IMG/VR virus record: IMGVR_UViG_3300030098_006079
Length of the DNA: 64,000 bases
Direction: 5' to 3' (one strand)
Source: a virus
Lineage: Duplodnaviria > Caudoviricetes
Shown: positions 15,583-48,046 of the stretch, piece after piece
Layout of the letters: each line of letters starts with the position of its first letter
Position numbering within the stretch: position 1 is the stretch's first letter
Notes under the pieces: generated by a model
What the model was told of the DNA's origin: nothing
What the model saw: only the letters and a program-made list of their open reading frames with translations
The model's database searches: none
Made by a program: the position numbers and the translations under genes

Positions 15583-16008
15583 ATGGAAGTAGAAACGTTA
15601 AATAAAACATGGTTCGTAGATGTAGATGGAACAATCCTACATCATCACACAAATGATAGCTTGGATAAACTTATCGAGGAGTATGGAGAAGATAGTTTTA
15701 AATATGAACAGCCTATTGTTAGTGCTGTAGAGTTTTTTCAAGATCTACCGGAAACAGATATCATTGTTATTGCAACTGCTCGCGAAAAGAGACACACCGA
15801 TCATACATTAAATGTATTAGAATATATTGGTATGCCTTTTGATCAATGGATATTCGAGTTAGGTGCTGGTCCTAGAGTTGTGGTAAACGACATCAAACCA
15901 CCGGGCGCGGCTGGCAATAAAAGAGCTCTCAAGACAGCTTACGGAATTAATCTAGATCGAGATGGAGGAATTACATCAAAGCATCGTGCGATTGCAGCAA
16001 AAATTTAA
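15583..16008 (+). CDS. HAD-superfamily phosphatase-like protein
   Basis: FVDVDGTI motif I, IATAR motif II. Confidence 0.75.
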
Positions 16009-16009
16009 A

Positions 16010-17191
16010 ATGGTAACAAAAATAGGAACCCCGTTTACGAAGACTTCTACTTTAGTAATGCTATGTGGAAGTGGAGAGTTAGGTAAAGAAGTTGTAATTG
16101 AATTGCAGCGTTTAGGTGCTGAAGTAGTTGCAGTAGACTCATATGAGAACGCTCCAGCGCATCAAGTAGCAGATCATTCGGCTGTTATTGATATGCTCGA
16201 CGAAAAACAATTGAGGGATGTCATCGTTAAATACAATCCTAATATTATTGTTCCAGAGATTGAAGCTATTGCTACAAATGTCCTGAAAGAAGCAGAAGAA
16301 TGTGATCGTACAGTCATACCAAATGCTAGAGCAGTTCAACTTACTATGAACCGAGAAGGTATTCGGTCTCTTGTAGCTGAAGAGCTAGGTTTAAAGACTT
16401 CTAATTATAAATTCGCTTCTACTAAAGAAGAGTTCACCGCAGCTGTTGAAGAAATCTCTTTACCTTGTGTAGTTAAGCCTATTATGTCTTCTAGCGGTAA
16501 AGGACAGAGTGTAATTAGATCGTTTGACGATGTACATACTGCCTGGGAATACGCTCAAACTGGAGGTCGAGCTGGAGCTGGTCGAGTTATTGTAGAAGAG
16601 TTTATTGAATTTGATTATGAAATTACTTTACTCACAGTAAAGCATAACGACGGTATCTCTTTTTGTGAACCTATCGGGCATGAGCAAGTAGATGGAGATT
16701 ATATTAAATCCTGGCAACCTCATCCAATGTCTGGTACCGCGAGACAAAAAGCTGAAGATATTGCTAGAAGCGTAGTAAGCAATCTTGGTGGGTATGGTGT
16801 GTTTGGAGTAGAGTTATTTGTAAAGGGTGATGAAGTTTATTTTTCTGAAGTATCTCCACGCCCACATGATACTGGTTTAGTGACTATGATCTCTCAAGAT
16901 CTATCAGAATTTGCTCTACATGCAAGAGCTATATTAGGTTTACCAATCCCTAATATTCTACAGCTAGGTTTTGGAGCATCTCATGTTATTAAGCTAGAAG
17001 GTAAGAGTGATAATGTAACATTCTCTGGCTTCGACGGTTTAAAAGAAACAGGTACTCAAGTGAGACTGTTTGGAAAACCTGGAGTAAATGGTTCGCGTCG
17101 TATGGGTGTTGCTTTAGCAATTGATAATGGTTTAGGATATGCAAAAGAAAAAGCCGAACGAGTCGCACTCAGCGTTAAGTCCGAATTGTAA
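16010..17191 (+). CDS. purT: Formate-dependent phosphoribosylglycinamide formyltransferase
   Basis: [55 protein letters not shown]. Confidence 0.97.
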
Positions 17192-17854: not shown

Positions 17855-17941
17855 GCCAGTGTGGTGAAATTGGCAAACACAACAGACTTAAAATCTGTCG
17901 CCCTTTTGGGCTTGTCGGTTCGAGTCCGACCACTGGTACCA
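17855..17941 (+). tRNA. trnL: tRNA-Leu(TAA)
   Basis: GCCAGTG/CACTGGT acceptor stem, acaga-CTTAAAA-tctgt anticodon arm, long variable arm, GTTCGA, encoded CCA. Confidence 0.97.
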
Positions 17942-19391: not shown

Positions 19392-19467
19392 GCCAGTTTA
19401 GCTCAGTTGGTAGAGCACTCGATTTGTAATCGAACGGTCGTCAGTTCGAATCTGACAACTGGCTCCA
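19392..19467 (+). tRNA. trnT: tRNA-Thr(TGT)
   Basis: 76-nt cloverleaf GCCAGTT/AACTGGC, loop TTTGTAA, GTTCGAA, CCA; C27-A43 mismatch. Confidence 0.95.
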
Positions 19468-20204: not shown

Positions 20205-21128
20205 ATGAAACTAAACATAAACAAAACTAAGTTCGAAAAGATATCGAATATCGATGTCCCTGATATCTTTTACAATCGTCTAAAGTCTGGAATCGACGTA
20301 GTAGATAATGCTTTTGGTGATGGGTTTCTCCCTTCTAGCACTGTTGTTATGAGCGGGGAACCTGGCACCGGTAAGACTACATTCCTGTTACAAGTACTCG
20401 AGGAGCTCGCCATTCGGAAATACAATGTAGGTTATGTTTCTGGAGAAGAATGCATAGAGCTGCTTAAGGTCAATTGTGACCGGATTGGTGTCAAGAATGT
20501 TCTGGCTTGTAATGAGACTAACCTCAACTCCATCCTCAAACATATCCCGAGCTTCGATGCATTAGTCATAGATAGCTTCCAGTCACTGAATACAAACAAG
20601 CGCGGCTTGGCTCATGAGAAAGAATGTGTCGAGAAGATTTGCGCTGCAGCTAAGAAGCATCAGACTACTGTATTCATTATCTCTCATATTACTAAGACTG
20701 GTAAGATGAAGGGTAGTACGTTGTTGCCTCACTCTGTGGATGTGGTGTGTCATTTGACTCGTCATGATGACTTCGACGAGATGGAAGATAAGTCAGTGGT
20801 GCTAAATATTACTAAGAATAGATTCGGCCCTACATTAGTTCGAGAGCTAAACTTCACTGCGCGCGGTTATGATTGGACTACAGTCAAGGAAGTAAAAGCA
20901 GAGAATACAGCAGCACCGAAGAGTCAGCGTATCAAGTCTGAGACAACTACGATCAAGCAACTTGCAGAAAAGATTAAGGATGGTAAGTTTAGCATTGACG
21001 AAGTGACCAAGAAGATCAAAAACAAACCTCGCGCATATTATGTGTTGAAAAAACTTCGGGATGATGGTATAATTGTTGAAGCTAATAAAGCTGGTAAGAG
21101 TAAGACTCACTACACATTCAAGAAGTAA
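20205..21128 (+). CDS. RadA/Sms-like AAA ATPase (no Lon domain)
   Basis: GEPGTGKTT Walker A, YVSGEE, VIDSFQ, SHITKTG, LPHSVD, KNRFGP. Confidence 0.85.
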   Translation: MKLNINKTKFEKISNIDVPDIFYNRLKSGIDVVDNAFGDGFLPSSTVVMSGEPGTGKTTFLLQVLEELAIRKYNVGYVSGEECIELLKVNCDRIGVKNVLACNETNLNSILKHIPSFDALVIDSFQSLNTNKRGLAHEKECVEKICAAAKKHQTTVFIISHITKTGKMKGSTLLPHSVDVVCHLTRHDDFDEMEDKSVVLNITKNRFGPTLVRELNFTARGYDWTTVKEVKAENTAAPKSQRIKSETTTIKQLAEKIKDGKFSIDEVTKKIKNKPRAYYVLKKLRDDGIIVEANKAGKSKTHYTFKK

Positions 21129-21571
21129 TGCAAACGTTTCTACCATATAACAATTTCTATCAGAGTGCAAAAGTACTAGACCAGAAGCGTCTAGGGAAGC
21201 AGAGAGTAGAAGTACTTCAATTGCTTAACTCTATCAAAGCATCGAAAGAAGATAGACCGTATAGAGGTTGGAAGAATCATCCATGTCGCAATATGTGGTA
21301 CCTCAAAGGTAAACATGACTACGCTAACGCATTAGTCTACTACGGCCAAGCAGTATGTAAAGCTTGGAAAGAGCGCGGGTATAAAGATACTTGCTATGAG
21401 AAAATATCTGCTCTTTATGATCATTCGAAAAAGTTAGTATTTCCTCCGTGGTTAGGTGTTCATAAACTTCATGAGTCCCATCGTAGTATGTTGACTCAGA
21501 AAGATAGTAGCTGGTACAGAAAGTTATGGCCTTCTACTCCAGATAATCTAGAATATTACTGGCCCGTATGA
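21128..21571 (+). CDS. Pyrimidine-dimer DNA glycosylase-like (MSMEG_6728 family)
   Basis: MQTFLP..LDQKRLGKQRVE, GWKNHP, HRSML..KD, YYWPV. Confidence 0.85.
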   Translation: MQTFLPYNNFYQSAKVLDQKRLGKQRVEVLQLLNSIKASKEDRPYRGWKNHPCRNMWYLKGKHDYANALVYYGQAVCKAWKERGYKDTCYEKISALYDHSKKLVFPPWLGVHKLHESHRSMLTQKDSSWYRKLWPSTPDNLEYYWPV

Positions 21572-24031: not shown

Positions 24032-24240
24032 TGGCACACTTCATTAAACTACACGGCTCAGATAATGCTGAGATGTTATTCAATCTTGATACTGTTGTAA
24101 GTATTGATCCAATGCCTGAAGGTACAGTCATTTGTACCAGATGGGGCAGCACTAAAGTAAAAGAAGACTTAGACACAATATTAAGACTGTCTAACTCTCC
24201 TTCTGGTGCAAGTCCGAACGAAATGCTTATTACTGAGTAA
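24031..24240 (+). CDS. FlbD-like small protein
   Basis: FIKL..FNLDTVVSI..VKEDLDTI fits FlbD pattern. Confidence 0.6.
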   Translation: MAHFIKLHGSDNAEMLFNLDTVVSIDPMPEGTVICTRWGSTKVKEDLDTILRLSNSPSGASPNEMLITE

Positions 24241-24659
24241 TGCCGTCTCAATTAGAATTAGATAAAACCTATTTGAGGATGGCTGCTGTGTGGGCTAATC
24301 TATCAAAAGCTACTCGTAAGAAGGTAGGTTGTCTAGTTGTTAAAGACGGTCAAATTATTTCCGACGGGTATAATGGTACTCCTTCTGGTTTTGATAATGA
24401 GTGTGAACATTTTGTATCGGGTACTCTAACGACAAAGCGAGAGGTATTACACGCTGAGTCTAATGCTCTAATGAAACTAGCTAAAGGCACTAACAGTAGT
24501 AAAGGAAGCACAATCTATCTAACTTTGAGCCCATGCTTTGATTGTGCTAAGTTAATTGTTCAAGCAGAGATAGAGAGAGTTGTATGTGCTGAAGCATATA
24601 GAATTACCGATGGTATCGACTTTCTACGTAAAAATAATATCCAAGTGGATATAATCTAA
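24240..24659 (+). CDS. dCMP deaminase
   Basis: HAESNA and PCFDC zinc motifs, GYNGTPSG. Confidence 0.95.
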   Translation: MPSQLELDKTYLRMAAVWANLSKATRKKVGCLVVKDGQIISDGYNGTPSGFDNECEHFVSGTLTTKREVLHAESNALMKLAKGTNSSKGSTIYLTLSPCFDCAKLIVQAEIERVVCAEAYRITDGIDFLRKNNIQVDII

Positions 24660-43826: not shown

Positions 43827-44129
43827 ATGATAGAGATCAAAGAAAAAATCGCTCGGGAAGCATATCAAGCTGGTAAGCAAGAAGGTGTGCGGATAGGTAT
43901 TGAAATGGGATTAGCTCATACCATAGAAGTTCTGAGCGCTGAGTTGCATCGTTATAAATTCCCAGAGGGTCATGAAAAGCGCTGGAATTATAAAATCGAT
44001 CAGCATCGTCCAGATGACAATTCGATGTTCGAGTTCAAGTATCAAAGGTATGAGGATCTTGTAAAAGAGCGCGAAGCTAATGAGCGCAGAGCACGAAAAA
44101 ATCGCGCGAGATCCAGAGATCGGCGATAA
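43827..44129 (+). CDS. Hypothetical early protein
   Basis: ATG after conserved element. Confidence 0.65.
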   Translation: MIEIKEKIAREAYQAGKQEGVRIGIEMGLAHTIEVLSAELHRYKFPEGHEKRWNYKIDQHRPDDNSMFEFKYQRYEDLVKEREANERRARKNRARSRDRR

Positions 44130-44230
44130 ACTGTTGTAGCTGCAACGGAAAAAAATCCGAAAAAACAGTTGCCGAAACCAGAGCGAGCCGCCATAATATT
44201 GGTGTTGTTGATAGAACGATAGAGAGAGAT

Positions 44231-44413
44231 ATGAAAGAAATCACATTTAATAAACGAGAAGCTAAAGCGCTTGAAGCGTTGGTTGAAATGCAAATTGAAA
44301 TGATTGAATCTGAAGGTGAGGATGTCATTGTTCAAGAGCCCGATTTGAGAAATGAATTAGAAGAGTTGCGGATGGTTCATTATAAAATGTTGAAATTCTT
44401 CCGTTTTAAATAA
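44231..44413 (+). CDS. Hypothetical early protein
   Basis: TTGCCG-17-CATAAT-attggtgttgtt promoter at 44169. Confidence 0.6.
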   Translation: MKEITFNKREAKALEALVEMQIEMIESEGEDVIVQEPDLRNELEELRMVHYKMLKFFRFK

Positions 44414-44461
44414 AGCGAAATAACAGTTGCACATCTCCGGAAAGCCACTATAATTACTTGT

Positions 44462-44617
44462 ATGAACGCTGATTGCGCCATGAAAATGACAGAGAAAGAG
44501 ATCGATAATCTAAAAGCTTGGAAGCGCTGGGGCGCATTAATGAAAATGCTCCGTGCTATCCATCGTGAAATTGAGCCGCTTCGTAAGGAGCGTCGTGAAG
44601 CAGAAGCTAGTCTTTAA
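44462..44617 (+). CDS. Hypothetical early peptide (51 aa)
   Basis: TTGCAC-16-TATAAT-7 nt-ATG. Confidence 0.55.
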   Translation: MNADCAMKMTEKEIDNLKAWKRWGALMKMLRAIHREIEPLRKERREAEASL

Positions 44618-44652
44618 ACCAATAACCATAACAGAAAGGAATTAATAATAAT

Positions 44653-45117
44653 ATGTCTAAGAAGAACCCAGCCCCAGTATTGAAATGTCTTATCTCTGGT
44701 CAATCCAGAAAGACTTCGCACAACTATCTCGCATCTAAAGCAACGCGCTTAGGTGTTACTAGTGAATGGTTGCTTAATAACTATGTAAGCAAGTATGTAT
44801 GTTCTCAACTTCGAGCTGGTCGTAACGTAAGCGATCTTGCTACTGATGGATGGTCTGGTACCGATGAGCAATTGAAAGAGCTCGTTCAGAAGAATAGTAA
44901 GAGCCGTGTAACTGACTTCTGGTTTGAGGCTGGTGTGTACAAGACCGCTAAGCCTACTCCTAAGAAGAAAGAAGAGAAGGTACAAACTCTTGATGATGTT
45001 GTACAAGTAACCGCTAGCGAGAGCGCGTTAGAGTCGATCGCTAAATCTACTCCAGAACCAGAACCAGAGCCAGCAACGTTCGATGAAGCGTTGGCTGAAT
45101 TACAAGAGCTTAACTAG
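44653..45117 (+). CDS. Hypothetical early protein
   Basis: 154-aa ORF ending before a terminator. Confidence 0.7.
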   Translation: MSKKNPAPVLKCLISGQSRKTSHNYLASKATRLGVTSEWLLNNYVSKYVCSQLRAGRNVSDLATDGWSGTDEQLKELVQKNSKSRVTDFWFEAGVYKTAKPTPKKKEEKVQTLDDVVQVTASESALESIAKSTPEPEPEPATFDEALAELQELN

Positions 45118-45137
45118 TTCATAATCACAACAACACG

Positions 45138-45162
45138 AAGCGCCCTACGGGGCGCTTTTTTT
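45138..45162 (+). terminator. Rho-independent terminator insulating the C-free cassette
   Basis: aagcgccc-TACG-gggcgctt plus T tract. Confidence 0.9.
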
Positions 45163-45199
45163 ATTAATAAAAAAAAGTTCAATAAAATGCATTTTTTTA

Positions 45200-45336
45200 T
45201 TGCATTTTTTCTCTCCAGATATTATAATATATTTTTGCATTTGAAAAACTGCAAATTTAAAATGAAAAATATGATAAAAAAAATAAAAAATAAAATGAAA
45301 AAAGTTCTGGAAATATTTTTGAATTTGATTTATAAT
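45200..45336 (+). promoter_or_regulatory. Three tandem sigma70-like promoters
   Basis: TTGCAT(45200)-17-TATAAT; TTGCAT(45235)-17-TAAAAT; TGGAAA(45308)-17-TATAAT(45331). Confidence 0.75.
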
Positions 45337-45381
45337 ATTTGTGTTTGTGAGAGAGTTAGAGTGAATAATAAAAATAATAAT

Positions 45382-45828
45382 ATGAAAAATAAAAAGTATG
45401 TTGTTGTGAGTGTTGGAGGAATGAATAGTGAGAATGAGAAATGGTTATGTGAATTTAGTAATTTAGATAATTGTTTTGATTATATTAATGAAAAAGTTAA
45501 TGAAGGTGAGATGTATAATAATGATGAAGAATTAGATAGAAATAATATATATTGGGATAGTAAAGAAGAATTAGATATATTTATAAATGATGAGTGGTAT
45601 GAATTATATAGAAAAGATGTTAAGTTAAATAAGGATGATGTTATTATTAATATGTGGTGTATAGGTGAGAGTAATATAGTATATGAAGTTGAGTATGATA
45701 TTAATAAGGGAGATGTAATTGATGGTAATGGTGAAGAAGGATGTGTAGTTGGATTTGATAATGATGAAGTATTATTATGGAATGATGGTGAGGGTTGGAG
45801 TAGTAAGTTGAGTGATTGTATAAAATAA
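45382..45828 (+). CDS. Acidic protein encoded with zero cytosines (148 aa)
   Basis: No P/A/T/H/Q; 36 D+E vs 14 K+R by hand count; leader AATAATAAAAATAATAAT. Confidence 0.8.
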   Translation: MKNKKYVVVSVGGMNSENEKWLCEFSNLDNCFDYINEKVNEGEMYNNDEELDRNNIYWDSKEELDIFINDEWYELYRKDVKLNKDDVIINMWCIGESNIVYEVEYDINKGDVIDGNGEEGCVVGFDNDEVLLWNDGEGWSSKLSDCIK

Positions 45829-45859
45829 AAGTATAGTATAGTATAATAATAAAAATAAT

Positions 45860-46228
45860 ATGAGTAATAGTTATAAAATAGTTAAGGTAGAATATAGTTT
45901 AGAAGAATATGGTATTAATAATATTGATGTTGTTAAGAGTGAGTTTGGTGTAGATGATGTTGTTAAAGGTGTATTTAAATATAAAGATGAATTGTATTAT
46001 GAAATTAAAATTATAGATGAGGAGAATGATATAGGAGTTTTAAGTTATGAAGATGAAAGTATATTATTAGTAATAGGTGATAAGAGTGAATGGTATAATA
46101 AAGTAGAGCAGTTTAATTTAGATAGTATAGAAAAGGAGGTTGATTTTAGTAATGGAGATTATAATGAAGAAGATTGGGATGATTGGGTAGAGTTTGTTTA
46201 TAGTATAATGATAAGAATAAAAGGATAG
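45860..46228 (+). CDS. Acidic protein encoded with one cytosine (122 aa)
   Basis: No P/A/T/H, one Q (CAG at 46109); 31 D+E vs 12 K+R; same A/T leader. Confidence 0.8.
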   Translation: MSNSYKIVKVEYSLEEYGINNIDVVKSEFGVDDVVKGVFKYKDELYYEIKIIDEENDIGVLSYEDESILLVIGDKSEWYNKVEQFNLDSIEKEVDFSNGDYNEEDWDDWVEFVYSIMIRIKG

Positions 46229-46241
46229 TATAGTATAGTTT

Positions 46242-46327
46242 GAGAGTATAGTATAGATATATATAGTATACTCTCTAGCTCTCTCTATATATAGGACTTA
46301 AGTACGAGAATCCGTTATATATAGAGA
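46242..46327. repeat. Two adjacent inverted repeats ending the C-free tract
   Basis: GAGAGTATA(46242)/TATACTCTC(46267); TCTCTATATATA(46282)/TATATATAGAGA(46316). Confidence 0.7.
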
Positions 46328-46363
46328 ACCCTGTAACCCGGGTCAGAAGGGCATGCAAAATTA

Positions 46364-46377
46364 TTTTTGCAAAACTC
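46364..46377. repeat. TTTTTGCAAAACTC motif, copy 2
   Basis: Left flank of the kinase-like gene. Confidence 0.7.
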
Positions 46378-46401
46378 TGATATAAATATCTATAAGGAAT
46401 T

Positions 46402-47052
46402 ATGAAATTTTTTGAAGAAGAATTGTCATCTACTGGGAAAAAAATACATTATAAAAAACATGTGCAACGCGGTTGGGGTAATGTAGTTACAGAAGTAGAG
46501 ATGTTACAAAACTTAGAAAAGTCATTTATCAACGAGCCAGAAATTAATCATTATCCTTTCCCTAAATACATCGATACTACAATATGTACAGAACATTTAG
46601 ATTATAATAATGGAGCTCATTCTACGTCTAACAAAAAAGAAGAACAAGGCCCGTGTTATATAATTACTATGAGTCATTGCGGTTATGATGCATATAAAAA
46701 TACAAAATATAATATCAAACCTATAAATTTGTATAACACTGTAAAATGTATTATCAATAATCTATATAATGTTGGTATAAAGCATACTAGTATAAAACCA
46801 CAAAATACTTGTATAAATGAATCCGGTGAAGTATCTTTAATAGATTTTGATTATTTTGATTATAAAAAGCAAAGTAAATTAGATATTATTTACAAAGAAC
46901 GTAGTATAGAAGAATTAAAGGAGATATTATTTACTAATAACGGTAATACATTTAAGGAAGAATTAAAAATAGTTCGAGAGTGTAAAGAATTACGAGATTT
47001 TGATCGGCGATTTAAGAAAGCCGGACCGTGGAGTATTTTATGTATGTTTTAA
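46402..47052 (+). CDS. Protein/LPS kinase-fold protein with degenerate catalytic loop
   Basis: K..E, FPK, HTSIKPQN (HxD Asp replaced by Ser), LIDFD. Confidence 0.65.
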   Translation: MKFFEEELSSTGKKIHYKKHVQRGWGNVVTEVEMLQNLEKSFINEPEINHYPFPKYIDTTICTEHLDYNNGAHSTSNKKEEQGPCYIITMSHCGYDAYKNTKYNIKPINLYNTVKCIINNLYNVGIKHTSIKPQNTCINESGEVSLIDFDYFDYKKQSKLDIIYKERSIEELKEILFTNNGNTFKEELKIVRECKELRDFDRRFKKAGPWSILCMF

Positions 47053-47054
47053 TT

Positions 47055-47068
47055 TTTTTGCAAAACTC
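47055..47068. repeat. TTTTTGCAAAACTC motif, copy 3
   Basis: Right flank of the kinase-like gene; flanks resemble copy 1 (AATTTTTTTGCAAAACTC..GGAG). Confidence 0.7.
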
Positions 47069-47190
47069 TGCGGAGTTCTTATAATAGGTTTTAATGCACG
47101 TCGACCGAGCAAGTGAACGGAGTGGTCTGCAAAACCATCTATGCAGGGGGCGGTACCCTGGGCGTGCTCCAATTTCTTATAAATACTTAC

Positions 47191-47418
47191 ATGGCTGATC
47201 GTGATGAAAAGAACAAAGAGAATGTAGAAGGTAAGTATTATGTAGATGAGCAGTGTATTGACTGTGATTTATGTAGAGAGGAGGCTCCGAATAATTTTAC
47301 TAGAGAAGATAATGAAGGTTATTCCTATGTATATAAGCAGCCAGAGAATGATCTAGAGGAAGAGATGTGTCAGAGTGCATTAGACAATTGTCCCGTTGAA
47401 GCTATAGGTAATGACTGA
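47191..47418 (+). CDS. Single-cluster 4Fe-4S ferredoxin
   Basis: CIDCDLC..APNNF..CPVEAI; TATAAATA-CTTAC-ATG. Confidence 0.92.
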   Translation: MADRDEKNKENVEGKYYVDEQCIDCDLCREEAPNNFTREDNEGYSYVYKQPENDLEEEMCQSALDNCPVEAIGND

Positions 47419-47593
47419 GATATTAAATTGTGAAGAAGAAGATTGTCCTAAGGATTTTTATGAGCTAGAGAGCTGTGGAGAGACCCATTTAAAGACATGT
47501 ATGAATTGTTTTAAGCGTGTAATGTTAGTAGCTACAAAAGACATGGCGAATGCTTTGATAGAAGAAGGAGAAAGGTGTGCATTAGACCAATGA
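47411..47593 (+). CDS. Small Cys-rich protein
   Basis: Five or more Cys including CMNC; coupled to the ferredoxin. Confidence 0.55.
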   Translation: MTEILNCEEEDCPKDFYELESCGETHLKTCMNCFKRVMLVATKDMANALIEEGERCALDQ

Positions 47594-47698
47594 AGCCTCC
47601 TAGTCCAGATAAGCCAGTAAGTCCATTTGTTATATTAATAGCATTACCAATAGCGTTAATATGTACGTTATTTATGTATTTGAGTAATTTAAAATTTT

Positions 47699-47932
47699 AT
47701 GGTACGAGTGTTAAAAGAGACGAGTAAGTTACTTACTATAATGATAGTTATAGTATTCTTTTCTATCTTATTATCTGAAGAGCCAATAGAGGCTAGAGCT
47801 AATAAGATAGTAGAAGATAAGTTAAGTTTACATAACACCCTTACGAGAGAAGAGAGAGATGAATACATGTTATATTTGCGTAGCTTAAACGCAGAGACAA
47901 AGGATTCAATCTATAGTATAGAGTTACCGTGA
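47699..47932 (+). CDS. Single-TM protein
   Basis: LLTIMIVIVFFSILL. Confidence 0.5.
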   Translation: MVRVLKETSKLLTIMIVIVFFSILLSEEPIEARANKIVEDKLSLHNTLTREERDEYMLYLRSLNAETKDSIYSIELP

Positions 47933-48046
47933 ACTTATTCGTACAATTAGCTATTAATAGGTGGAGGTTTAGGAAAAAAAATTGGAGATTGTATATTAGT
48001 TATTATTATCGTTGGATTAAGAATCGACGAACGATTAAATATTTAC

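What the first reader, a model, noticed from the sequence alone, without database searches (positions are those of the whole stretch)
45308..46270. A transcription unit with almost no cytosine: 963 nt, two intact genes, one C
Seen directly: from 45308 to 46270 the + strand holds only A, T and G, apart from C46109. G is plentiful (12-20 per 60-nt line in the lines I counted), while neighbouring lines carry about 6-17 C per 60 nt, so this is not simple AT richness. The tract begins at the -35 box of the third tandem promoter, covers both ORFs and their spacers, and ends at a hairpin, so it matches one transcript. Logical consequences: (a) the mRNA from that promoter needs essentially no CTP; (b) the DNA cannot contain any G/C-containing palindrome, nor CG, GATC or CCWGG; (c) the template strand has no G; (d) translation needs no tRNA for Pro, Ala, Thr or His, nor for the CUN, UCN or CGN boxes. 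Hypotheses (inference): escape from ddhCTP chain termination by prokaryotic viperins, from CTP depletion, or from C-specific RNases; avoidance of most restriction sites in DNA exposed early; transcription by host RNAP before a modified base or DarT-type G modification matters; or a local strand-specific deamination process. I do not know of a described case.
Basis: partly seen in the sequence, partly recalled or inferred. Interest (0 to 1): 0.97.

Follow-up and report, generated by a model that had tools for sequence, protein, structure and literature searches.

The report
Phage gene cassette written without cytosine
A strongly expressed early gene cassette of an uncultured marine phage, and its relatives in about 50 other ocean metagenome contigs, is written with only A, G and T on the coding strand; evolution has kept it so, I found no description of this in the papers I searched, and it probably shields the message from something that acts on cytosine.

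Summary
Window 45308-46270 (+) has 390 A, 340 T, 232 G and one C (C46109, the only Gln codon); 45253-46270 has two C. Chance: 4e-73. All 76 other ORFs have 11-25% C.

It is not an artefact. The same sequence occurs in many independent assemblies and in metatranscriptome contigs.

It is conserved. All 47 related loci carry a C-free tract of 270-1,396 nt around the homologous gene, 26 C in 34,671 non-redundant nt. Fam B varies at 253 of 417 aligned sites, yet almost never to C. Remote homologues with normal composition exist, so the constraint is on the nucleic acid, not the protein.

The unit runs terminator, tandem sigma70-type promoters, a covariation-supported 5' hairpin, a shuffled set of small acidic ORFs, then 3' hairpins. 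Most residual C lie in promoter boxes or hairpin stems.

Best reading (about 0.3): C is excluded from the single-stranded body of an early mRNA, which defeats C-dependent, single-strand-specific endoribonucleases. Rivals: transcription proof against CTP shortage or ddhCTP, Rho evasion, attack on non-template-strand C, template-strand G lesions or modification, mutation bias.

The scan had noted C-free tracts in other phages, all non-coding. Four literature searches for natural C-free genes or transcripts (two of them phage-specific) found no such case.

The parts
45137..45158 (+). Intrinsic terminator of the upstream gene (GC-rich hairpin plus T run); left insulator of the unit
   Evidence: a GC-rich hairpin and T run stand at the same place in related loci
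45200..45228 (+). Promoter P1, TTGCAT-17-TATAAT
   Evidence: conserved in related loci
45234..45255 (+). 5' leader hairpin (UUUGCA / UGCAAA) just downstream of the -10 of P1; it holds C45238, C45249 and C45252. It overlaps a possible second promoter, TTGCAT-17-TAAAAT, at 45235-45263
   Evidence: The equivalent 7-bp hairpin in 12 related loci has 5 of 7 pairs with compensatory changes
45308..45336 (+). Promoter P3, TGGAAA-17-TATAAT; C45307 lies just upstream of its -35 box. A transcript from here is C-free up to 46109
   Evidence: a fully C-free equivalent (TTGTAT-17-TATAAT) stands in L016/L018-type loci
45253..46270 (+). C-free tract: 1,018 nt with two C (45307, 46109)
45382..45828 (+). ORF-A (Fam A), 148 aa, pI 4.07, 15-letter alphabet, no C in the gene
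   Evidence: homologues down to 35% identity also lack P/A/T/H/Q
45830..45847 (+). Intergenic motif AGTATAGTATAGTATAAT, repeated in shortened form after ORF-B; candidate recombination or regulatory module
   Evidence: in my reading of the related loci it recurs between and after cassette genes
45860..46228 (+). ORF-B (Fam B), 122 aa, pI 4.07; its single C (46109) makes the only Gln codon
   Evidence: (model pLDDT 80.5)
46237..46280 (+). 3' hairpin 1; ascending arm C-free, and C reappears in the descending arm (from 46271)
   Evidence: z = -3.3 for the two hairpins together; comparable hairpins in related loci
46282..46327 (+). 3' hairpin 2, a conserved downstream element ahead of the next promoter

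Best explanation
The tract is one very strongly expressed early transcription unit of a roughly 202-kb marine phage, in which selection excludes cytidine from the single-stranded body of the mRNA. Shown: the C-free state is conserved through extensive divergence. It covers coding and non-coding parts of the unit, always on the sense strand. It holds at least six shuffled families of small acidic proteins. Most remaining C sit in promoter boxes, in the stem of a 5' hairpin and in the descending arms of 3' hairpins. Inferred: an mRNA with no unpaired C cannot be cut by single-strand-specific, sequence-specific endoribonucleases whose sites contain C. These include most MazF/ChpBK-type toxins and possibly a phage-encoded shut-off nuclease. 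Such an mRNA also offers no loading site to Rho. With its 5' and 3' hairpins, the message would therefore survive and be translated when other mRNAs are destroyed early in infection. The small acidic products would then be first-wave counter-defence or take-over proteins, comparable in role to T4 Dmd or T7 Ocr. Their function is unknown.
For: Sense-strand specificity and match to one promoter-to-hairpin unit. Conservation: all 47 related loci have a C-free tract of 270-1,396 nt, with 26 C in 34,671 non-redundant nt. In Fam B, 253 of 417 aligned sites vary and 14 have a C allele; in the core clade 73 third positions vary and 1 has C. The constraint is on the nucleic acid: remote homologues have normal composition (11-28% P/A/T/H/Q, gene C 12-18%), while a second subfamily is C-free at DNA level. 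Several unrelated-looking ORF families and the spacers share the property. C tolerated in stems: a 7-bp hairpin at the start of the P1 transcript, with 5 of 7 pairs showing compensatory changes, holds the only 5' C in 12 loci. The same holds in the window apart from one loop C, and 3' C begins in descending arms. In L104, C reappears mainly in the terminator and promoter between units. Most residual body C lie at 0.6-0.9 of the cassette length. High expression: metatranscriptome contig depth of 164 on ORF-A with nothing on the flanks in run X7. Tandem promoters. Published basis: sequence-specific toxins cut only single-stranded RNA, and 12 of the 14 MazF/ChpBK-family specificities listed contain C (PMC5408214). 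ACA-less mRNAs keep being translated in MazF-producing cells (PMC5408214, PMC9102682).
Against: No nuclease, host or defence system is identified, and the host is unknown. Avoiding particular motifs would not require removing every C, so the argument rests on bet-hedging against many specificities. Toxins such as ToxN (AAAK) or MazF-mt9 (UUU) would still cut. The window itself has unpaired C at 45249 (a loop), 45307 and 46109. The RNA is AU-rich and weakly folded, so it should be a good RNase E substrate. The transcription start sites are inferred, not mapped, and the palindrome could be a DNA operator rather than an RNA hairpin. The protein functions are unknown: no Pfam, PHROG, PDB or AFDB match.
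Confidence: 0.3

Rival explanations
1. Nucleotide-level immunity. The unit is built so that RNA polymerase needs essentially no CTP. The message is then completed when CTP is scarce (it is normally the least abundant NTP) or when a viperin-type defence fills the pool with the chain terminator ddhCTP. Each C would be a one-hit risk for everything downstream.
For: Near-absolute exclusion: 0 C in up to 1,396 nt. Transcripts from the last promoter are C-free from +1 in the window and in L016/L018-type loci. Most residual body C lie in the 3' part of the last gene, which fits polarity. Very high expression. C first reappears after the last stop codon.
Against: In at least 12 loci the only convincing promoter gives a transcript with two conserved C in its first ~25 nt, inside a covariation-supported hairpin. 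That is the worst position under a polar one-hit model. If such C were affordable, conserved Thr, Ala and Pro of the protein family should also have been kept, and they were all replaced. The promoters are sigma70-type, so the host polymerase, which must tolerate its own cell's nucleotide pool, makes the RNA.
Confidence: 0.22
2. Rho evasion with directional insulation. Rho loads on unpaired C-rich, G-poor RNA. A C-free, G-containing sense transcript cannot be terminated by Rho even when untranslated. The antisense transcript would be G-free and C-rich, an ideal Rho substrate.
For: C 0% and G 24-39% is the reverse of a rut site. C hidden in stems would be invisible to Rho. Most genes of this phage lack a Shine-Dalgarno sequence (5 of 37), so coupling may be loose. 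An earlier scan note proposed Rho for a non-coding C-free island (e1-1937248). From my own knowledge, T4 early transcription is known to be Rho-sensitive.
Against: Rho needs many spaced C. A handful of C per kb would be harmless, so purging to zero and giving up five amino acids is not explained. The ORFs are translated, which already excludes Rho. The host is unknown and might lack Rho.
Confidence: 0.12
3. DNA-level protection. The non-template strand of the most heavily transcribed early DNA is exposed as single-stranded DNA, and C in it would be a target, for example of a single-strand cytosine deaminase followed by uracil excision. Alternatively, the C-free/G-free duplex cannot contain any recognition site that has both G and C on one strand, which would protect it from most restriction, Dam and Dcm sites.
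For: The non-template strand is the C-free one in every locus. No site with both G and C can occur, which follows from the sequence. The layout resembles the T7 early region: tandem promoters, acidic proteins, then a weakly kinase-like gene.
Against: One protected kilobase in about 202 kb does not save the genome from restriction. The two long assemblies break the genome at different points, 6.9 kb and about 71 kb upstream of ORF-B, so they show no defined genome end at the cassette. AT-only palindromes are not purged. Borders follow the promoter and hairpin rather than a DNA feature. I know of no such transcription-targeted deaminase defence in bacteria.
Confidence: 0.12
4. Template-strand G avoidance. 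Earlier scan notes on this genome, untested here, report a complete 7-deazaguanine pathway. If virion G is replaced by a bulky derivative, or if G lesions accumulate in sunlit water, a template strand without G would be the one template an unmodified host polymerase reads without obstacle.
For: The template strand has no G, which follows from the sequence. Notes e1-5364656 and e1-5364682 report folE, queD, queE, queC, queF and a TGT-like gene. The window encodes a T4 endonuclease V-like pyrimidine-dimer glycosylase, so DNA damage matters to this phage.
Against: All other early genes have template G. From my own knowledge, 7-deaza bases pair normally and major-groove adducts such as glucosyl-hmC are transcribed. 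I could not verify the pathway. The per-site lesion probability is too low to purge every G.
Confidence: 0.06
5. No function. A strand-specific mutation pressure, transcription-associated C deamination in a hyper-expressed region, has erased C, and the proteins have adapted.
For: Ala-to-Val and Thr-to-Ile replacements are frequent: 22 of 48 replacement residues are simple C-to-T products. The region is very highly transcribed.
Against: T is not enriched (35% against 32% background), while A and G rise. Pro became Gly, Glu or Lys, not Leu, Ser or Phe. C persists where a -35 box or a stem needs it, and the borders are sharp. Other transcribed genes have normal C. The state is stable across deep divergence, and the tree suggests, without showing, more than one origin.
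Confidence: 0.05

Closest known systems
ACA-less mRNAs in the MazF 'single protein production' system (engineered; PMC5408214, PMC9102682)
   Same: A message is made immune to a single-strand-specific endoribonuclease purely by omitting the nucleotides of its site, so it alone is translated while other mRNAs are cut. Sites inside secondary structure are not cut.
   Different: That system is engineered, removes one triplet and keeps all four bases. Here a natural unit omits the base altogether, including spacers and leader, at the price of five amino acids. No nuclease has been identified.
G-less / C-less cassettes used as in vitro transcription templates
   Same: A promoter followed by several hundred nucleotides lacking one base on the RNA-like strand. 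Transcription needs only three NTPs and stops at the first occurrence of the fourth.
   Different: Those are laboratory constructs and non-coding. The natural unit encodes conserved proteins, and in many loci its leader hairpin contains C.
PeSL (promoter-early stem-loop) cassettes of hyperplastic regions in T4-type phages (PMC2839356, PMC4122927)
   Same: Small early ORFs of unknown function are bracketed by sigma70-type early promoters and stem-loops. There are repeated intergenic motifs, gene order is shuffled and presence is variable between close relatives.
   Different: PeSL cassettes are not reported to lack a base. The T4-type nature of this phage rests on untested earlier notes.
T7 early region (promoters A1-A3, gene 0.3 ocr, gene 0.7 kinase) and T4 immediate-early anti-defence genes (dmd, arn)
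   Same: Tandem strong host-polymerase promoters drive small, very acidic first-wave proteins. A weakly kinase-like gene follows (Pkinase E = 6e-4, below the cut-off).
   Different: There is no sequence or fold similarity to Ocr, Arn or Dmd. Those genes have ordinary base composition.
Non-coding C-free strand-polar arms noted earlier in this scan in SPbeta-like, T5-like and gut phages (e1-3642493, e1-1907817, e1-1940535, e1-1937248)
   Same: One strand almost free of C over 0.5-2 kb, conserved among relatives.
   Different: Those tracts are non-coding and lie beside packaging or control regions. This one is a protein-coding, transcribed operon with sense-strand polarity.

Membership tests
Sequencing or assembly artefact (bisulfite-like conversion, chimera) | Seen in one assembly only; relatives and reads show C at these positions | tested here: not met
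   Identical or near-identical tract in 8 contigs from different samples and assemblers. P0001 is on record in 65 blocks of the collection. RNA-library contigs carry it. 47 diverged relatives are C-free.
Strand-specific deamination hypermutation | C replaced by T: T excess and C-to-T codon products | tested here: not met
   T is 35.3% against 31.6% background, while A is 40.5% and G 24.1%. 22 of 48 replacement residues are C-to-T products, and Pro became Gly, Glu or Lys.
C-less transcription cassette (three-NTP transcript) | No C from the transcription start to the end of the unit | tested here: inconclusive
   This holds for the inferred P3 transcript of the window up to 46109, and for L016/L018-type loci. 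It does not hold for P1 transcripts, whose 5' hairpin has C. Start sites are not mapped.
Interferase-proof (ACA-less type) mRNA | No recognition site of C-dependent single-strand endoribonucleases in unpaired RNA | tested here: met
   No C means no ACA, ACY, UAC, GCU or UCC site in 45308-46108. 5' C are paired in a conserved stem. For the window, exceptions are C45249, C45307 and C46109.
Interferase-proof (ACA-less type) mRNA | Demonstrated resistance to a nuclease active during infection | not testable with these tools
   Host and nuclease are unknown.
PeSL-flanked early ORF cassette of T4-type phages | Early sigma70-type promoter plus stem-loop modules flanking small ORFs, with shuffling and indels between relatives | tested here: met
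   Promoters and hairpins. Gene order A-B versus B-A-C(-D/E). A relative lacking the cassette. The neighbouring gene is absent in L005.
PeSL-flanked early ORF cassette of T4-type phages | The phage belongs to the T4 superfamily | not tested
   Known only from earlier scan notes (uvsX, gp41, gp43). The window has a T4 endonuclease V-like gene and a dCMP deaminase but no core gene. The record could not be searched.
Ocr/ArdA-type DNA-mimic anti-restriction proteins | Sequence or fold membership | tested here: not met
   No Pfam or PHROG hit. The Fam B model (pLDDT 80.5) has no PDB match with E <= 0.001 and only weak AFDB hits to uncharacterised proteins. The Fam A model is too poor to judge.
Ocr/ArdA-type DNA-mimic anti-restriction proteins | Small, strongly acidic, expressed first from strong host promoters | tested here: met
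   pI 4.07, with D+E 31 of 122 and 36 of 148 residues. Tandem promoters. Acidity partly follows from the three-letter code.
Rho-resistant (anti-rut) transcript | C-poor, G-richer unpaired RNA | tested here: met
   C 0%, G 24-39%.
Rho-resistant (anti-rut) transcript | The host has Rho, and Rho acts on this unit | not testable with these tools
   Host not identified.

The most novel reading that the evidence does not exclude
Omitting a nucleotide is a cis-encoded counter-defence. Some phages write their first-wave genes in a three-letter alphabet, so that the message can be made and survives in a cell where cytidine in RNA, or CTP itself, is under attack by C-dependent RNases, ddhCTP or CTP depletion. 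The state may have arisen more than once within a single protein family, and it makes a whole class of C-directed immunity or take-over mechanisms directly testable by recoding.
Probability: 0.5. Interest if true: 0.95.

Novelty: categorically new. Interest (0 to 1): 0.88.

Why it matters
Total exclusion of one base from a conserved, protein-coding, multi-gene transcription unit has not, as far as I could find, been described in nature. One paper I found states that most natural DNA and RNA lack long three-letter stretches (PMC6526412). The exclusion is maintained against the cost of losing Pro, Ala, Thr, His and Gln, in a protein family whose other members use them. This means that something in these infections acts on cytosine, or its template partner, with near one-hit severity. 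That gives a simple experimental handle: compare native and synonymously C-restored versions to find the responsible host or phage activity. It also marks at least six unknown protein families as probable first-wave take-over or counter-defence factors. It shows natural folded proteins built from 15 amino acids. It provides a search criterion, strand-specific base absence over coding DNA, for finding more such units in viral metagenomes.

Tried and rejected
Near and protein-level searches of cultured-phage records found nothing for the region, for P0001 or for a 915-aa neighbour. A DUF932 neighbour gave only distant hits.

Pfam, PHROGs, the ESM Atlas and fold searches gave no function for Fam A or Fam B, nor for the normal-composition homologues. 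The Fam A structure model was too poor to search (pLDDT 60). Rfam found nothing in 44000-48000.

IMG/VR holds only one relative of Fam B and none of Fam A. The intergenic 18-mer matched only unrelated AT-rich contigs, which I used as a control.

Host inference from PurT failed: the nearest cellular homologues are 61-67% identical and spread over many phyla.

I could not verify the earlier notes that the genome is T4-like and has a 7-deazaguanine pathway. The record is not held. Walking upstream was blocked by a 4,398-aa gene that runs off the locus. The one IMG/VR relative is a 20%-complete fragment without a TGT gene.

General palindrome avoidance is rejected, because AT-only palindromes are common. 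Simple AT richness is rejected, because G is 24-39%. Protein-level composition as the cause is rejected, because spacers and leaders are C-free and normal homologues exist. A translation or tRNA explanation is rejected, because non-coding parts share the property.

The tree suggests two C-free clusters, but a single origin is not excluded.
Full report
OBSERVATION. From 45308 to 46270 the + strand has 390 A, 340 T, 232 G and one C, at 46109. The stretch 45253-45306 is also C-free, so 45253-46270 (1,018 nt) has two C, at 45307 and 46109. The window has 16.4% C overall. The chance of at most one C in 963 nt is 4e-73, and 2e-47 even at the lowest gene-level C content of 11%. No other 300-nt window is depleted in any base. 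The next longest C-free run is 60 nt. All other 76 ORFs have sense-strand C of 11-25%, while the two genes here have 0.00. G is 24%, so this is not AT richness. The composition is the window's A/T/G renormalised without C, and T is not inflated. In 449 kb of unrelated AT-rich viral contigs the longest C-free run was 175 nt, inside a stretch that is also G-free for 199 nt.

NOT AN ARTEFACT. The window comes from an uncultured marine phage-like genome of about 202 kb, with no close relative among cultured phages. ORF-B's exact protein is on record in 65 blocks of the assembly collection, including two independent contigs of about 202 kb. Eight fetched contigs from different samples and assemblers are 98.7-100% identical over the tract. 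Contigs of RNA libraries also carry it. In run X7 a 244-nt contig of depth 164 lies on 45410-45653 and further contigs lie on 45624-45707 and 45904-46197, with nothing on 44600-45355 or 46280-47100. Run X4 has a 245-nt contig on 45413-45657. These are contigs from RNA libraries, so they suggest high expression relative to the flanks but do not prove it. One RNA-library contig joins 45116 to 46299 with 73 other letters between. A relative without the cassette therefore exists.

ANATOMY. The parts, in order:
- an intrinsic terminator of the upstream gene (45137-45158);
- promoter P1, TTGCAT-17-TATAAT (45200-45228);
- an inverted repeat, TTTGCA...TGCAAA (45234-45255), which overlaps a possible second promoter (45235-45263);
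- promoter P3, TGGAAA-17-TATAAT (45308-45336);
- ORF-A (45382-45828, 148 aa);
- a 31-nt spacer with the motif AGTATAGTATAGTATAAT;
- ORF-B (45860-46228, 122 aa);
- two strong hairpins (46237-46280 and 46282-46327; z = -3.3).
C reappears in the descending arm of the first hairpin. Both proteins use 15 amino acids and have pI 4.07. Neither ORF has a Shine-Dalgarno sequence. That is typical of this phage: only 5 of 37 genes have one, and A-rich leaders are the rule. The predicted RNA is about half as stable per nucleotide as other parts of the same strand: -0.113 against -0.234 +/- 0.024 kcal/mol/nt.

THE PROPERTY IS CONSERVED. ORF-B (Fam B) has 330 homologous protein clusters down to about 60% identity. 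Nearly all have none or one of the residues P, A, T, H and Q. ORF-A's homologues, down to 35% identity, behave the same way.

DNA of 46 metagenome loci and one IMG/VR locus was fetched. Every one has a C-free tract around the homologue, always on the sense strand, of 270-1,396 nt. Many have no C at all. Pooled, the non-redundant cassettes have 26 C in 34,671 nt.

In a codon alignment of 32 distinct Fam B genes, 253 of 417 sites vary and only 14 have a C allele. In the core clade 73 third positions vary and one has C. Synonymous codon choice is strictly the C-free subset. dN/dS is 0.4-0.9, inflated because C-ending synonymous changes are forbidden. The Fam B model folds with pLDDT 80.5. These are real genes.

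THE CONSTRAINT IS ON THE NUCLEIC ACID, NOT THE PROTEIN. The cassettes hold a shuffled set of at least six small acidic ORF families. The order is A-B here and B-A-C(-D or -E) elsewhere, with F and G in others. Spacers and leaders are C-free too.

A profile search of 1.8 billion representatives found remote Fam B homologues with ordinary composition (11-28% P/A/T/H/Q). It also found a second subfamily with none. DNA confirms both. Normal homologues have 12-18% C (L105-L108). L103 and L104 are C-free, with G about 35%. In L104 the C return mainly in the terminator and promoter region between two units.

The family's conserved T, A and P (as in VYTGYAENSI and LVIPE) become S/I/V, V and G/E in C-free members.

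A tree places the two C-free/low-C clusters apart, nested among normal members, with support of 81-91. Compositional attraction would tend to join such clusters, not separate them, but a single origin is not excluded. More distant members (L045-L055) are leaky: a 270-344-nt C-free core lies inside 700-900 nt of low C.

WHERE THE REMAINING C ARE. At the left border the C sit in -35-like boxes and in the inverted repeat just after the -10 of P1. In 12 loci that repeat aligns as a 7-bp hairpin, starting about where the P1 transcript starts. Five of its seven pairs show compensatory double changes, with three different stem sequences. This points to a 5'-terminal RNA stem-loop, although a DNA palindrome cannot be excluded.

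In L016/L018-type loci and in the window a further promoter follows, so the last transcript is C-free from its start. At the right border C begins in the descending arms of hairpins. Most C inside the body lie at 0.6-0.9 of the cassette length, in the last gene.

So C is excluded from the single-stranded body of the message. It is tolerated where a promoter box or a G-C pair needs it. The window's exceptions are C45249 (hairpin loop), C45307 and C46109.

MECHANISM. Sense-strand polarity, the match to one promoter-to-hairpin unit and the inclusion of non-coding parts all point to selection acting through the transcript or the act of transcription. I put that at about 0.6-0.7.

I rank first (0.3) exclusion of unpaired C to defeat C-dependent, single-strand-specific RNA attack. 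In a published review, sequence-specific toxin endoribonucleases cut only single-stranded RNA, and 12 of the 14 MazF/ChpBK-family specificities listed contain C. In the same literature, ACA-less messages remain translatable in MazF-producing cells (PMC5408214, PMC9102682). Removing every C would be a universal answer to many specificities. The 5' and 3' hairpins fit a message built to last.

The argument against a strict CTP-free or ddhCTP-proof design (0.22) has two steps. First, many loci keep two C in the first ~25 nt of the only convincing transcript. Under a polar one-hit model that is the most costly position. Second, all conserved Thr, Ala and Pro codons were given up, which suggests that a paired C costs nothing while an unpaired C costs much.

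Rho evasion (0.12) fits the composition but does not require zero C. DNA-level readings (0.12) do not explain the polarity or the borders, and AT-only palindromes are not purged. Template-G avoidance (0.06) is prompted by earlier, untested notes of a 7-deazaguanine pathway in this genome, which I could not check. Pure mutation bias (0.05) is disfavoured: T is not enriched, the borders are sharp, C is retained where needed, and the replacement residues do not fit. None of these readings has been tested experimentally. The host is unknown and so are the protein functions.

COMPARISON WITH WHAT IS KNOWN. In function the unit most resembles the engineered ACA-less mRNAs and the laboratory C-less or G-less transcription cassettes. 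In architecture it resembles the promoter-plus-stem-loop (PeSL) cassettes that shuffle small early ORFs in T4-type phages (PMC2839356, PMC4122927). In layout it resembles the T7 early region, with tandem promoters, acidic proteins and then a weakly kinase-like gene. It is not a member of the Ocr or ArdA families. Four literature searches for natural C-free genes or transcripts found no natural protein-coding unit lacking a base. Earlier notes of this scan describe C-free tracts in other phages, but all of those are non-coding.

VERDICT. The finding is real, conserved, selected and apparently undescribed. The mechanism is open but directly testable by synonymous recoding.

Noticed in passing
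window 46402-47052; L005: The 216-aa gene just downstream of the cassette has a weak protein-kinase match (Pkinase E = 6e-4, below the cut-off) and is the C-poorest ordinary gene in the window (11% C). It is absent from one otherwise near-identical contig, L005, so it is a presence/absence polymorphism.
   Followed up: partly
window 45116 / 46299 (RNA-library contig of run X6): A 234-nt contig joins 45116 to 46299 with 73 other letters between. A relative therefore lacks the whole C-free cassette, and the cassette behaves as an insertion/deletion module between the upstream terminator and the downstream hairpin.
   Followed up: no
window 24240-24656, 21128-21568, 15962-17188, 47113-47418: The window encodes a dCMP/cytidine deaminase-family protein (E = 1e-22), a T4 endonuclease V-like pyrimidine-dimer glycosylase, PurT and a 4Fe-4S ferredoxin. 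ThyX, a sulfotransferase and a KaiC/DnaB-like ATPase are also somewhere in the window. The deaminase plus ThyX suggest that C nucleotides are channelled to T, but no link to the cassette was shown.
   Followed up: partly
L109 1-9917 (upstream of the window start): A single called gene of 4,398 aa runs into the start of the window and has no Pfam hit on record. Earlier notes call these genes fibres.
   Followed up: no
window, all genes: Only 5 of 37 larger genes have a Shine-Dalgarno-like sequence. Most start after an A/T-rich 'AAATAATT'-type leader, which suggests a host with little Shine-Dalgarno use. The promoters nevertheless look sigma70-type.
   Followed up: partly
window 17855-17941 and 19392-19467: There are tRNA-Leu(UAA) and tRNA-Thr(UGU) genes. 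UUA and UUG are almost the only Leu codons used in the cassettes (99% of Leu codons), while Thr codons are essentially unused there.
   Followed up: no
L034-type loci upstream of P1 (e.g. L034 about 1040-1070): C-free direct repeats of GTAAAGT-like units lie between the upstream terminator and the first promoter in most related loci. They could be an UP element or a factor-binding site.
   Followed up: no
window 46282-46400 and 47035-47085: A conserved structured element follows the cassette, and a palindrome (TGCAAAATTATTTTTGCA type) sits at the promoter of the next gene. A similar TTGCA-type promoter stands at 47058-47085, so this looks like a family of early promoter/operator modules.
   Followed up: no
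L104 640-1132: In the second C-free subfamily a promoter-like block (TTGATTTTTGTAA.GTTTGTTTGTATTAT) is repeated before successive low-C units, separated by a C-containing terminator. This looks like a tandem array of C-poor units.
   Followed up: no
contig lengths: Most contigs carrying cassette homologues are only 0.5-5 kb, and many end inside or at the cassette. Assemblies tend to break here, perhaps through microdiversity or shuffled variants.
   Followed up: no
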